From a virus, in the IMG/VR virus record IMGVR_UViG_3300025012_000054, positions 27,456-91,455 of that record: a stretch of DNA of 64,000 nucleotides, one strand, 5' to 3'. A program made the translations under genes and the position numbers. The notes under the pieces are model-generated. The model was not told the DNA's origin and did no database searches. It saw only the letters and a list, made by a program, of their open reading frames with translations. Below are positions 7,145 to 17,044 of the stretch, one piece after another; the first letter of the stretch is position 1; every line of letters starts with the position of its first letter.

Positions 7145-7324
7145 ATGAAGCAAGCGATAATTCATTTCAAGAATGGAACAAAAGATTGGGTAGATCCAAT
7201 CGATGACGAAGAAAAAGACATTTTCTATGGGAACGCCACTATTATCATAACCAACGGGGCAAATCAAAGATATGTTTATGATAGGCAGTCCATATCGCTG
7301 ATCGAAATTGTACATATTGATTAA
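7145..7324 (+). CDS. Small hypothetical protein, 59 aa (not in ORF track)
   Basis: AGGAG RBS; MKQAIIHFKNGTKDWVDP...; flanked by sites 7116 and 7324. Confidence 0.7.
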   Translation: MKQAIIHFKNGTKDWVDPIDDEEKDIFYGNATIIITNGANQRYVYDRQSISLIEIVHID

Positions 7325-7389
7325 TGAAATTGAACTTTCATGAGGTACATAAAACAATAATTTCATAAGGTTTTGAAATGGATAAATAA

Positions 7390-14568: not shown

Positions 14569-14640
14569 AGCGGGTTAGAGTAGTGGATCACTCACGAGTC
14601 TCATAAACTCGATACGTTCGTTCAAATCGAACACCCGCTA
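14569..14640 (+). tRNA. tRNA with CAT anticodon (Met, or Ile2 if lysidine-modified)
   Basis: Acceptor AGCGGGT/ACCCGCT, D arm GAGT/ACTC, anticodon arm CGAGT-CTCATAA-ACTCG, T arm GTTCG-TTCAAAT-CGAAC; no encoded CCA. Confidence 0.9.
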
Positions 14641-14643
14641 CAA

Positions 14644-14774: not shown

Positions 14775-15095
14775 ATGTATTCTAGTATTTGGGTTGAACA
14801 TATCAATATTTGCAGAATAATCCAATATATATCTATGTTACATGGATTCGATATTGCTTTGCGAGATGCCGAAGAAGTATGGGAACATTACTCCGAATCT
14901 TTATCTGCGGGGTGGATGGTGGAAACATATGGAGATCTAGATAATATGTGGCAATTAATTAAGAATCAGTTTATTAGCAGCAATGAAACAACCCCAGAGT
15001 TTGATATTAGAGTCAAGGAACAGATGGTAGACACTGCTGAAATGATTGAGAACGACGACGAATGTAATATACAATTCGTCATAAAAAATAATTAG
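14775..15095 (+). CDS. Hypothetical protein (WxxYSxSxxAGW motif)
   Basis: ORF track; followed by site 15101. Confidence 0.65.
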   Translation: MYSSIWVEHINICRIIQYISMLHGFDIALRDAEEVWEHYSESLSAGWMVETYGDLDNMWQLIKNQFISSNETTPEFDIRVKEQMVDTAEMIENDDECNIQFVIKNN

Positions 15096-15123
15096 TGTTA
15101 ATGAAATTGTGCTTTTATTAAGT

Positions 15124-15293
15124 TTGTTCACAAAAGGCGTGGGTTGCCAATGAGCCGATATGCAGGCAACATCTTGTCTGGCACTTAAAGCGTCTGAAGA
15201 GAGAGTAACGCCTCGAAACCCGAAAGGGTAGCGCGGAGTATCCCTAGCCAGAGAATAACTGGATACCAGTCGGCTCACGCCTTTTGTGAATAA
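15124..15293 (+). ncRNA. Type I hammerhead ribozyme (core 15190-15234) within a 23-bp enclosing stem
   Basis: GCGT-CTGAAGA-GAG(loop)CTC-GAAA-CCC(GAAA)GGG-TA|GCGC; GUA cleavage triplet, predicted cut after 15230; outer stem 15124-15146/15271-15293 has only G-U deviations. Confidence 0.88.
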
Positions 15294-15305
15294 GCAAAGT
15301 CATAT

Positions 15306-16463
15306 ATGGAAGGAGATAATTTGAAAGTTATTGACAGCGAGAAATTACCAATCAAAATGTGGCTAACAGATATTGAAGATGGCGCTTTACAACAAGCAAA
15401 AAACTTAGCCAATCTTCCATTTGTCTATAAATGGATTTCTATTATGCCAGATAGTCACCAAGGTTATGGTATGCCCATTGGTGGCGTCATGGCTACCCAA
15501 GGCGTGATAGTCCCAAATGCGGTTGGTGTGGACATCGGCTGTGGTATGGCTGCGATAAAAACTTCTCTGACAGATATTTCTACAGAAGAATTAAAATTGG
15601 TTATGGGTAAAATCCGTGATGTTATTCCTGTGGGATTTAATCATCATCCAGAAGATCAAGAATGGGACGGATTCGATGACGCTCCAGATATTCAGACCAT
15701 CCAGGATCAACTTCCGTCAGCCCGAAAACAGTTGGGAACGCTTGGGGGAGGAAACCATTTCATTGAAATTCAAAAAGGATCAGATGATCATATATGGATT
15801 ATGATTCATTCTGGAAGCCGTAACTTTGGCAAGAAAACCGCTGATATATACCACAAACTTGCGCAAAAATTATGCGACAGATGGCATGTGCAATTACCGG
15901 ATAAGGACTTGGCTTTTCTTCCTATTGAGACCTCGGAAGGAAAAGAGTATTTCCAAGCAATGAAATATTGCTTAAATTTTGCCGAGGGTAACAGGGATTT
16001 GATGGCTAGACGTACTCTACTTTGCTTATCTTCTGTAGTGGATTGCTATATGGAAGATGAAATTGATATTCATCATAACTACGCCGCATTTGAAAATCAT
16101 TACGGCAAGGATGTTTTGGTTCATCGTAAAGGTGCCACAAAAGCCACTCTGGGGCTACGAGGAATTATTCCTGGTTCTATGGGAACATCCAGTTATATCA
16201 CCAAAGGATTGGGTAATCCAGAAAGTTTCGAATCTTGTTCCCATGGCGCAGGTCGTAGAATGGGACGCAAGGATGCCGTAAGAACCTTAAACCTGAAAGA
16301 TGAACAAGATAAAATGACTGGTATTGTGCACGGCTTGCGAGATGCCTCTAATTTAGATGAAGCACCAGGTGCATACAAAAACATTGATGAAGTTATGAAA
16401 AACCAAGAAGATCTGGTTGAAATTAAAATATCACTAAAGCCTTTGGCGTCAATCAAAGGTTAA
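15306..16463 (+). CDS. rtcB: RtcB RNA ligase (probable start TTG 15321)
   Basis: PDSHQGYGMPIG, VGVDIGCG, GGGNHFIE, HSGSR, HRKGA, PGSMG, SHGAGR and DEAPGAYK motifs. Confidence 0.96.
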   Translation: MEGDNLKVIDSEKLPIKMWLTDIEDGALQQAKNLANLPFVYKWISIMPDSHQGYGMPIGGVMATQGVIVPNAVGVDIGCGMAAIKTSLTDISTEELKLVMGKIRDVIPVGFNHHPEDQEWDGFDDAPDIQTIQDQLPSARKQLGTLGGGNHFIEIQKGSDDHIWIMIHSGSRNFGKKTADIYHKLAQKLCDRWHVQLPDKDLAFLPIETSEGKEYFQAMKYCLNFAEGNRDLMARRTLLCLSSVVDCYMEDEIDIHHNYAAFENHYGKDVLVHRKGATKATLGLRGIIPGSMGTSSYITKGLGNPESFESCSHGAGRRMGRKDAVRTLNLKDEQDKMTGIVHGLRDASNLDEAPGAYKNIDEVMKNQEDLVEIKISLKPLASIKG

Positions 16464-16489
16464 TGAAATTAGGCTTCTATCGGAGGTGA

Positions 16490-17044
16490 ATGAAAAATAA
16501 ATATATTATCGAAAACGGTATAATAAAAATAATTCTCCATAGGCGAGAAGACAATGATTTAATAACGATTATTGATAAAGAAGATTTTGATAAAGTGAAC
16601 GCATATGATGGTACGTTTTATGCTAGTAGATATATTAAACTAAATGGGAAATTTTATGTAAAAATAACCTTATATCTAGGAACCATTGACGGAAAACCGA
16701 AATATAAAGTAATTAGGTTTCATAGGATTATTTTGAATTGTGAAAACAACGATATTGTTGATCATATAAATGGAGACACTCTAGATAACCGAAAATCCAA
16801 TCTAAGAATAACTGATTTTGGAGGAAACACAAAAAACAGATGTGGCGAGAACGCAAATAACACTTCTGGTGAACGCAACGTGTCTCTTATAAATGGGCAG
16901 TACGTAGTTCAAATTCAAGTCAATGGAAAAAATACTGTTTTAGGAAAATTTAATAATATCGAACAAGCGAGAATTATAGCAAACCAAGCAAGAAAAAAGT
17001 ATTATGGGGACTATTCTGGAAATAGTACCACAATAGCCCAATAA
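16490..17044 (+). CDS. HNH endonuclease with C-terminal AP2-like domain
   Basis: FHRII...VDHINGDTLDNRKSNLR; NTSGERNV...LGKF...ARKKYYG. Confidence 0.85.
   Translation: MKNKYIIENGIIKIILHRREDNDLITIIDKEDFDKVNAYDGTFYASRYIKLNGKFYVKITLYLGTIDGKPKYKVIRFHRIILNCENNDIVDHINGDTLDNRKSNLRITDFGGNTKNRCGENANNTSGERNVSLINGQYVVQIQVNGKNTVLGKFNNIEQARIIANQARKKYYGDYSGNSTTIAQ

What the first reader, a model, noticed from the sequence alone, without database searches (positions are those of the whole stretch)
15101..16480. Hammerhead ribozyme clamped in a long stem directly upstream of rtcB: a possible cleave-and-repair module
Seen: a complete hammerhead core (CUGAAGA 15194-15200, stem II GAG/CUC, GAAA 15215-15218, stem III CCC-GAAA-GGG, GUA triplet, cut after 15230), an extended stem I (TCTGGC/GCCAGA), and a 23-bp outer stem whose only deviations are G-U pairs, ending about 15 nt before the rtcB RBS. 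Established: hammerheads leave 2',3'-cyclic phosphate and 5'-OH ends, which are the RtcB substrates. Inference: the outer stem keeps both fragments together, so RtcB can re-ligate its own leader, acting as a feedback sensor, an mRNA-stability switch or a decoy substrate. An alternative pairing (TGAGCCGA 15151-15158 with TCGGCTCA 15270-15277) suggests a switch. Ribozyme and rtcB together fill one palindrome-bounded unit (15101 to 16463).
Basis: partly seen in the sequence, partly recalled or inferred. Interest (0 to 1): 0.8.

Follow-up and report, generated by a model that had tools for sequence, protein, structure and literature searches.

The report
Hammerhead inside knotted phage RNA cassette
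The self-cutting hammerhead RNA in front of this phage's RNA-ligase gene rtcB is real, but it belongs to a separate, widespread and uncatalogued knotted small-RNA cassette that happens to sit next to rtcB in this phage only, so the proposed cut-and-repair module is not supported.

Summary
The hammerhead at 15194-15230 (cut after A15230) is genuine. A full descriptor (core, three stems, non-G cleavage base) hits once in the window and never in 100 simulated windows, and its stems covary across dozens of homologous copies. Rfam's hammerhead models miss it.

It is not an rtcB leader device. It lies in one loop of a ~180-nt cassette (15115-15295) from a large phage RNA family that Rfam 15 does not hold. 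The family RNA has two halves locked by two pseudoknots, with 99-100% pairing and heavy covariation.

I collected 77 distinct members in three gene orders: HH-A-B (19), B-HH-A (42, as here) and B-A without hammerhead (16). The hammerhead always cuts just 5' of an invariant CGCGGA.

The rtcB link is not conserved. None of 15 related rtcB loci has the RNA, and relatives with 98%-identical RtcB lack the cassette. The nearest cassette copy (95.6% identity) has no rtcB. Only 2 of 33 family-bearing phage records encode any RtcB.

About a third of members sit beside co-oriented tRNA genes. The RNA's function is unknown. Earlier runs of this scan found the same family on other DNA.

The parts
15115..15295 (+). 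Whole RNA cassette (P1 + half B + hammerhead + half A)
   Evidence: 95.6% identical over 181 nt to L018 1018-1198, whose flanks are unrelated. It is absent from L031/L032, which match the window again from 15303. It folds with z = -6.5.
15122..15137 (+). P1 closing stem, 5' strand (pairs with 15280-15295)
   Evidence: Minimum-energy fold. Every B-HH-A and B-A member has a stem at this place but with a different sequence; pairing in the MAFFT register is only 65% because lengths vary.
15138..15184 (+). Half B: invariant CGUGGG (15138-43); P2 hairpin 15143-48 with 15165-70; PK1 5' strand 15152-58; P3 3' strand 15177-82
   Evidence: Alignment of 49 members: P2 is 100% paired with up to 4 pair types per position.
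15189..15235 (+). Type I hammerhead: stem I 15190-93 with 15231-34; core CUGAAGA 15194-15200; stem II 15201-03 with 15212-14 (loop AGUAACGC); GAAA 15215-18; stem III 15218-21 with 15226-29; cut between A15230 and G15231
   Evidence: Descriptor unique in the window, 0 hits in 100 simulations. Homologous hammerheads in the same slot have covarying stems I, II and III. The L002 homologue scores 28.7 bits, E = 2.7e-5, against RF00163.
15231..15277 (+). Half A: (G)CGCGGA 15231-37; P4 hairpin 15238-43 with 15261-66; P3 5' strand 15247-52; GAAUAAC 15253-59; PK1 3' strand 15270-76
   Evidence: My model R1 scores 64.2 bits, E = 1.3e-12. P4 is 98.7%, P3 99.4% and PK1 100% paired, with many changes on both sides.
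15280..15295 (+). P1 closing stem, 3' strand
   Evidence: no T-run follows it, so it is not terminator-like.
15098..15118 (+). Intergenic direct-repeat motif TTAATGAAATTGTGCTTTTAT (other copies at 16460-16480 and 7321-7341)
   Evidence: 3 copies against 0.04 expected. The copy behind rtcB is also present in L031.
15321..16463 (+). rtcB (RNA 3'-phosphate/5'-OH ligase): a neighbour, not part of the RNA family
   Evidence: Pfam PF01139, E = 1.5e-113. The TTG start matches the N-termini of homologues.
14569..14641 (+). tRNA-Met, same strand, about 500 nt upstream (typical neighbourhood of the family)
   Evidence: In 16 of 49 members a co-oriented tRNA lies within 300 nt.

Best explanation
The motif at 15194-15230 is a working-type (type I) hammerhead. 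It is a module of an autonomous ~180-nt RNA cassette, not of rtcB. The cassette encodes a member of a large phage RNA family built from two similar halves. Each half is xCGYGG, then a 6-bp hairpin, then a tail. The loop of each hairpin pairs with the tail of the other half (PK1 and P3), which gives an interlocked double pseudoknot closed by a variable stem P1. Genes for this RNA occur in circularly permuted orders. Where a hammerhead is present, it always cuts immediately 5' of the invariant (G/C/U)CGCGGA of half A. Its job is therefore to create that 5'-OH end: it trims a leader in HH-A-B genes and nicks the connecting loop in B-HH-A genes such as this one. Here, cleavage would give a two-piece RNA held together by P1, PK1 and P3. 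The 3' piece would still be joined to the rtcB message unless a host nuclease cuts it off. Shown: the hammerhead features, the host-RNA helices, the three gene orders, the cassette boundaries and the lack of rtcB linkage. Inferred: that it cleaves, and that the mature product is a stable, trans-acting small RNA released from phage transcripts, as tRNA-operon small RNAs are. Its molecular target is unknown. Adjacency to rtcB is best read as two independent cargo cassettes landing in the same variable, tRNA-associated region.
For: Hammerhead: unique full-descriptor hit. The parsed homologues (33 of the 41 hammerhead-bearing copies) have an invariant core, variable-length covarying stems II and III, and a 2.1-1.1 pair that covaries: CG 16, AU 5, UG 3, GC 2. 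Host RNA: 92.6% of cells are paired against 67.5% when shuffled. The covariation score is 0.665 against 0.171 shuffled and at most 0.144 for slid partners; my own count on 49 members agrees. Architectures: 42 B-HH-A, 19 HH-A-B and 16 B-A among 77 distinct members. Independence from rtcB. Strand and neighbourhood: every adjacent tRNA is co-oriented. No terminator lies between the cassette and rtcB. No conserved neighbouring protein. No Rfam family matches the non-hammerhead part.
Against: No Rfam hammerhead model reports the window copy, and none of 15 other family loci reached a gathering score. Cleavage is untested. In 16 of 77 members the slot holds only a short linker or a decayed hammerhead, so a break at that point is not universally needed. 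In the window the minimum-energy fold prefers a longer outer stem that would compete with PK1 and P2, so a precursor or alternative conformer is possible. Function and mature ends are inferred from context only.
Confidence: 0.78

Rival explanations
1. One reading: hammerhead and rtcB form a dedicated cleave-and-repair unit. The clamp holds both fragments together, and RtcB re-ligates its own leader as a feedback sensor, stability switch or decoy.
For: Hammerhead products (2',3'-cyclic phosphate and 5'-OH) are RtcB substrates (established; PMC8782182). The fragments would stay paired. No terminator separates the cassette from rtcB.
Against: None of 15 related rtcB loci has the RNA. The rtcB relatives with 98%-identical protein lack the cassette. 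The closest cassette copy has no rtcB. RtcB lies within the fetched flanks of only 2 of 77 members and is encoded in only 2 of 33 family-bearing phage records. The supposed switch helices are constitutive family helices.
Confidence: 0.06
2. A local cis effect only: in this phage the cleaved cassette acts as a 5'-end insulator and stabiliser for the rtcB message. The 5'-OH end buried in a tight structure would work like synthetic ribozyme insulators such as RiboJ. This would be in addition to whatever the family RNA does elsewhere.
For: The cassette ends 15 nt before the ribosome-binding site with no terminator between. A promoter-like site lies at 15046-15075 (not above chance).
Against: L031 and L032 express the same rtcB without the cassette. 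In most members no gene starts directly behind the RNA, or a tRNA follows it.
Confidence: 0.15
3. The double pseudoknot is a ligand- or protein-sensing aptamer that gates hammerhead cleavage (an allosteric ribozyme) or downstream expression.
For: Many invariant unpaired bases sit in a compact pseudoknotted fold. The invariant CGCG of half A is sequestered in hammerhead stem I before cleavage.
Against: Downstream genes are not consistent. A fifth of members have no hammerhead. In HH-A-B genes the aptamer would be transcribed only after the ribozyme.
Confidence: 0.1
4. The cassette is chiefly a selfish or mobile RNA-coding element that spreads between phages, with the hammerhead serving its own propagation as in ribozyme-bearing circular RNAs.
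For: The cassette is 95.6% identical between phages whose shared genes are about 67% identical. It shows presence/absence polymorphism. One contig carries tandem copies (L051). Members occur in contigs assigned to at least eight bacterial phyla.
Against: There is a single ribozyme per unit, so no unit-length excision. No associated transposase, reverse transcriptase or recombinase was found. Strong purifying selection acts on a complex fold.
Confidence: 0.08

Closest known systems
Type I hammerhead ribozymes of phages and prophages (Perreault et al. 2011, PMC3088659; Rfam RF00163)
   Same: CUGANGA...GAAA core, G10.1-C11.1, A15.1-U16.1 and a non-G cleavage base. Stem I is open and stems II and III are capped. 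It sits in phage intergenic DNA and probably processes long transcripts.
   Different: It scores below all Rfam hammerhead models. Stem II has only 3 bp with a recurrent AGUAACGC loop. It is embedded in a loop of another conserved RNA rather than flanking genes.
YrlA/Y RNAs of bacterial rsr-rtcB operons
   Same: A structured non-coding RNA encoded beside rtcB.
   Different: No tRNA-like module, no Ro/Rsr gene and no Rfam Y-RNA match. Adjacency to rtcB is not conserved.
Small stable RNAs of phage tRNA clusters, for example T4 species 1 and 2 (rnaC, rnaD; my own knowledge)
   Same: Small structured RNAs of unknown role, co-transcribed with and processed alongside phage tRNAs.
   Different: No sequence or structure relation was shown. 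This family uses a ribozyme for one end and is spread over very different phages.
Naturally permuted non-coding RNAs (hammerhead types I-III, twister, two-piece tmRNA; Eckert et al. 2023, PMC10085705)
   Same: The same fold is encoded in circularly permuted gene orders, with either of two helix ends left open.
   Different: Here the permuted RNA has no known function and carries a second RNA (the hammerhead) at the permutation joint.
Synthetic ribozyme insulators such as RiboJ (my own knowledge)
   Same: A hammerhead followed by a hairpin directly upstream of a ribosome-binding site leaves a defined 5'-OH leader.
   Different: This one is natural, and the part retained after cleavage is half of a conserved pseudoknotted RNA, not a simple hairpin.

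Membership tests
Hammerhead ribozyme, type I | Catalytic core C3-U4-G5-A6-N7-G8-A9 and G12-A13-A14 | tested here: met
   CUGAAGA 15194-15200 and GAA 15215-17; invariant in the 26-sequence alignment.
Hammerhead ribozyme, type I | Three helices adjoining the core, with G10.1-C11.1, A15.1-U16.1 and a paired 1.1-2.1; cleavage base H17 is not G | tested here: met
   Stems I, II and III have 4, 3 and 4 bp and H17 is A15230. The 1.1-2.1 pair is a U-G wobble here and C-G, A-U or G-C in relatives.
Hammerhead ribozyme, type I | Type I topology: stem I open, stems II and III capped by loops | tested here: met
Hammerhead ribozyme, type I | Score at or above the Rfam gathering cut-off (RF00163 and relatives) | tested here: not met
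   No hit at all at E<=10. The homologue in L002 reaches 28.7 bits against a cut-off of 34. 15 other family loci gave no hit at gathering score.
Hammerhead ribozyme, type I | Site-specific self-cleavage giving 2',3'-cyclic phosphate and 5'-OH ends | not testable with these tools
   Needs in vitro transcription or RNA-end sequencing.
Any Rfam 15 family (for halves A and B) | Covariance-model match | tested here: not met
   Nothing relevant at E<=10 in the window or in the unpermuted copy L002; nothing relevant at E<=1 in L001-L003.
   0 of 15 rtcB loci, 2 of 77 family loci and 2 of 33 family-bearing records.
Drum RNA motif (Weinberg et al. 2017) | Match to the motif; Rho-independent terminator at the 3' end | tested here: not met
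   No Rfam hit of any kind and no terminator. The main text of the paper mentions no hammerhead link for drum. I had recalled such a link from memory, and it did not hold.
New phage double-pseudoknot RNA family (this scan's earlier findings) | Halves A and B with invariant CGCGGA, GAAUAAC-like, CGUGGG and GCAG segments, plus covarying P2, P4, P3 and PK1 | tested here: met
   (R1 scores 64.2 bits).

The most novel reading that the evidence does not exclude
Halves A and B form an undescribed class of pseudo-two-fold-symmetric, interlocked double-pseudoknot RNA. It would be a tandem 'dimer' of a half-unit whose two xCGYGG segments meet on the dyad, which is why x is the same base in both halves in 76 of 77 members. 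It would have a biochemical role of its own in phage infection, such as binding a dimeric host factor, acting as a decoy in tRNA-directed defence, or catalysis. The hammerhead would time the release of its invariant 5' end. Phage or host RtcB could reversibly re-seal the nick.
Probability: 0.3. Interest if true: 0.85.

Novelty: new variant of a known kind. Interest (0 to 1): 0.6.

Why it matters
The attractive story, a ribozyme paired with the ligase that repairs its cut, does not survive comparison with related phages. What remains is arguably more useful. It is a widespread, strongly conserved, uncatalogued phage RNA with a defined fold and three natural gene orders. A built-in ribozyme marks one of its ends to the nucleotide. 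Culturable carriers exist: Pectobacterium phages Pappous and Taid, Dickeya phage Setonix, Enterobacter phage SDFMU_EhYP, and lambdoid prophages in 15 complete E. coli genomes. Its function is therefore directly testable. It also shows that current Rfam hammerhead models miss a whole subfamily of phage hammerheads.

Tried and rejected
1. Rfam at gathering score and at E<=10 on 301-nt and 60-nt slices gave no hammerhead or other relevant family for the window copy.

2. Drum RNA, which I recalled as hammerhead-associated, was rejected. The main text of the paper mentions no such link, and there is no Rfam hit.

3. A bare sequence pattern for the hammerhead is at chance level, so I replaced it with a stem-aware descriptor.

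4. My first reading, that about 1,100 E. coli genomes carry the RNA, was wrong. That query included part of the Q gene. With the RNA alone the count is 15 of 5,426.

5. A search for a conserved neighbouring protein found none. The largest cluster (11 loci) consists of antisense reading frames lying across the RNA itself.

6. The alternative non-coding stretch in L031/L032 is not notably structured, z = -0.33.

7. I considered pairing of A12 or B15 with an invariant G across a CGCG/CGUG helix. It does not explain x = G, which is the majority case.

8. Literature searches for a description of the host RNA or of a hammerhead-rtcB link found nothing. A 2026 preprint reports a divergent hammerhead cluster that is also below Rfam thresholds, but I could not tell whether it is the same subfamily.

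9. MAFFT could not align hammerhead stems II and III, whose lengths vary. I parsed those stems by script instead.

Full report
**1. Observation**

- CUGAAGA at 15194-15200.
- A 3-bp stem II (GAG/CUC) with loop AGUAACGC.
- GAAA at 15215-18.
- Stem III, A-CCC/GGG-U, capped by GAAA.
- Cleavage base A15230.
- Stem I, AGCGU with GCGC.

The strand folds far better than shuffles (-73.4 kcal/mol, z = -6.5). The fold has an unbroken 25-bp stem, 15122-15146 with 15271-15295.

rtcB is real (PF01139, E = 1.5e-113). Its likely start is TTG 15321, behind AAGGAG 15310-15.

Rfam reports no hammerhead here at any threshold, and the bare sequence pattern is at chance level. A descriptor that also demands the three stems and a non-G cleavage base hits only at 15194-15230. 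It never hits in 100 simulated 64-kb windows.

**2. A larger conserved RNA**

A sensitive blastn of the leader matched intergenic sites in Pectobacterium phages Pappous and Taid, Dickeya phage Setonix and Enterobacter phage SDFMU_EhYP. None of these sites is near rtcB.

Those copies have the order hammerhead, then "half A" (GCGCGGAG...GAAUAACUGG...CCAG...), then a variable hairpin, then "half B" (CGUGGG...CAAYG...GCAG...CAUCU...). That is a circular permutation.

Two independent pattern scans of IMG/VR, one anchored in B and one in A, and one scan of species genomes collected the family. There are 77 distinct members:
- 42 are B-HH-A.
- 19 are HH-A-B.
- 16 are B-A, with a short linker or a decayed hammerhead.

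Members occur in contigs assigned to Proteobacteria, Firmicutes, Bacteroidetes, Chloroflexi, Acidobacteria, Armatimonadetes and Patescibacteria, among others.

**3. Structure**

On 49 members, with the halves aligned separately, four helices are 94-100% paired with up to six pair types per position:
- P2 is the hairpin in half B.
- P4 is the hairpin in half A.
- PK1 joins the P2 loop to the tail behind P4.
- P3 joins the P4 loop to the tail behind P2.

The pair-counting tool was run on 26 contiguous B-HH-A sequences:

| Measure | Observed | Shuffled | Slid partners |
|---|---|---|---|
| Cells paired | 92.6% | 67.5% | 36-44% |
| Covariation score | 0.665 | 0.171 | at most 0.144 |

No shuffle out of 500 reached the observed value on any measure. 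A mutual-information scan added a 2-bp extension (B53-54 with A26-25).

In the window, the inner part of the 25-bp minimum-energy stem (15138-46 with 15271-79) would compete with P2 and PK1. It is not conserved in the few relatives I checked by eye.

**4. The hammerhead in family context**

Of the 41 hammerhead-bearing copies among the first 49 members, the script parsed 33. In these:
- The core is invariant.
- Stems II and III vary in length and sequence while staying paired.
- The cleavage base is A, C or U.
- The cut falls immediately 5' of the invariant CGCGGA.

The pair next to the cut covaries: CG 16, AU 5, UG 3, GC 2. The window's stem II, GAG-AGUAACGC-CUC, recurs in L018, L055, L068, L081 and L082. 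Relatives have GGGG-GUCACG-CCCC, GGUG-AGUAACGC-CACC and similar forms.

The L002 copy scores 28.7 bits against RF00163 (E = 2.7e-5 in a short search). None of 15 further family loci reached an Rfam gathering score. Rfam therefore systematically misses this subfamily. A 2026 preprint reports a divergent hammerhead cluster that is likewise below all six Rfam models. Whether it is the same subfamily is unknown.

**5. The rtcB link**

- Fifteen phage rtcB loci related to this one (41-98% protein identity) have no copy of the RNA within 1.5 kb, by eye or with my covariance model R1. Rfam finds no ribozyme in the 14 of them that were scanned.
- L031 and L032 are about 92% identical in DNA across rtcB. 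They align with the window up to 14551 and again from 15303. A 15-nt match (AAATTGTGCTTTTAT) lies directly left of the gap. The cassette is therefore a clean presence/absence difference.
- The nearest cassette copy, in L018, is 95.6% identical over 15115-15295. Its phage is otherwise about 67% identical, and the copy is followed by unrelated genes.
- RtcB lies within the fetched flanks of only 2 of 77 members: the window itself, and L058 about 5.8 kb away.
- A whole-record search finds RtcB in 2 of 33 family-bearing phage records, and in 1 of 17 records that are at least 90% complete.

Both rtcB and the RNA tend to sit beside tRNA genes. Four of 15 rtcB loci have adjacent tRNAs. Sixteen of 49 RNA members have a tRNA within 300 nt, and every nearby tRNA is on the same strand. 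The window has tRNA-Met about 500 nt upstream. Chance adjacency of two cargo cassettes in a variable, tRNA-associated region therefore suffices to explain the arrangement.

**6. Mechanism**

*Shown:* the ribozyme's cut site coincides with the 5' edge of the invariant CGCGGA in every architecture that has a ribozyme.

*Inferred:* in HH-A-B genes the ribozyme trims the leader. The 3' side is set by a following tRNA (RNase P) or by a leader-trailer helix, as seen in L001, L010 and the E. coli copies.

*Inferred:* in B-HH-A genes the ribozyme nicks the joint. This leaves a two-piece RNA held together by P1, PK1 and P3.

Sixteen members manage with a continuous short linker. In several of them the linker pairs with GCGGA (L047, L049, L070; output). 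The break is therefore helpful rather than obligatory.

No protein family is consistently encoded nearby. This fits a trans-acting RNA that works alone or with a host factor.

In this window there is no terminator before rtcB. Half A would therefore stay on the rtcB message as a structured 5'-OH leader. A local stabilising or insulating effect is possible but is not what the family is selected for.

**7. An unexplained regularity**

The base before CGCGGA in half A is G15231, the first base after the cut. The base before CGUGGG in half B is G15137. These two bases are identical in 76 of 77 members (G/G 59, C/C 11, U/U 6). This holds in members without a hammerhead as well.

Both halves share one plan: xCGYGG, then a 6-bp hairpin, then a tail, with reciprocal loop-to-tail pairing. 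I read this as pseudo-two-fold symmetry of a tandemly duplicated half-unit. That would also make both gene orders easy to reach. This is inference only.

**8. Novelty and prior notes**

Rfam 15 has no family for halves A and B. Literature searches found no description of them.

Earlier agents of this scan reported the same family on other genomes. I reached the same reading before seeing those notes (note) and re-tested it here.

New in this report:
- The explicit test of the rtcB link.
- The cassette boundaries.
- The architecture counts.
- The x = x regularity and the pseudo-symmetry idea.
- The frequency in E. coli: 15 of 5,426 complete genomes, unannotated. In the copy examined it lies between the Q antiterminator gene and the holin gene.

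**Verdict**

The hammerhead is confirmed. The cleave-and-repair module with rtcB is not supported. The real object is a permuted, hammerhead-bearing member of an uncatalogued phage RNA family of unknown function.

Noticed in passing
window 7321-7341, 15098-15118, 16460-16480: Direct repeats of an intergenic motif, TTAATGAAATT..GCTT.TAT: 3 copies against 0.04 expected. Two of them bracket the cassette plus rtcB, and the one behind rtcB is also present in L031. They may be cassette-junction or regulatory sites.
   Followed up: partly
window 15231 and 15137; all family loci: The base 5' of CGCGGA (half A) equals the base 5' of CGUGGG (half B) in 76 of 77 members (G/G, C/C, U/U). The two halves share one architecture, which suggests a pseudo-symmetric tandem dimer.
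   Followed up: partly
L042 149-487 and 1501-2292: An rtcB homologue is split in two: residues 1-113 and 124-380 lie about 1 kb apart on the same strand. This could be an intron, an intein or a homing-endonuclease insertion.
   Followed up: no
L031 1026-1142: A 117-nt stretch scores as tRNA (40.4 bits) directly before a normal tRNA, upstream of the rtcB that lacks the cassette. It may be an intron-containing or otherwise unusual tRNA.
   Followed up: no
L051 11189-11446 (contig IMGVR_UViG_3300032173_000020; see also L133): Two copies of the cassette lie about 224 nt apart at the end of the locus. This is either a tandem duplication or a terminal-repeat artefact. It bears on how permuted gene orders arise.
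   Followed up: no
L058 9462-9617 (-): The hammerhead slot holds a decayed ribozyme: stems and GAAA are recognisable but CUGANGA is lost. Halves A and B are intact (R1 scores 75.3 bits).
   Followed up: partly
L047, L049, L070 linkers between half B and half A: In hammerhead-less members the short linker can pair with the invariant GCGGA or CGCGG, for example UCCGC-AGGC-GCGGA. It mimics hammerhead stem I.
   Followed up: no
L080 5089-5209 (-): A strong Betaproteobacteria-1 RNA (RF02932, 102.7 bits) lies about 2 kb from the family RNA and two tRNAs in the same phage contig.
   Followed up: no
window 16490-17044: An HNH-endonuclease-like ORF lies directly behind rtcB. Similar ORFs lie within 2.7 kb of the RNA in 4 family loci, the window included. 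This hints at homing-type mobility of the region.
   Followed up: no
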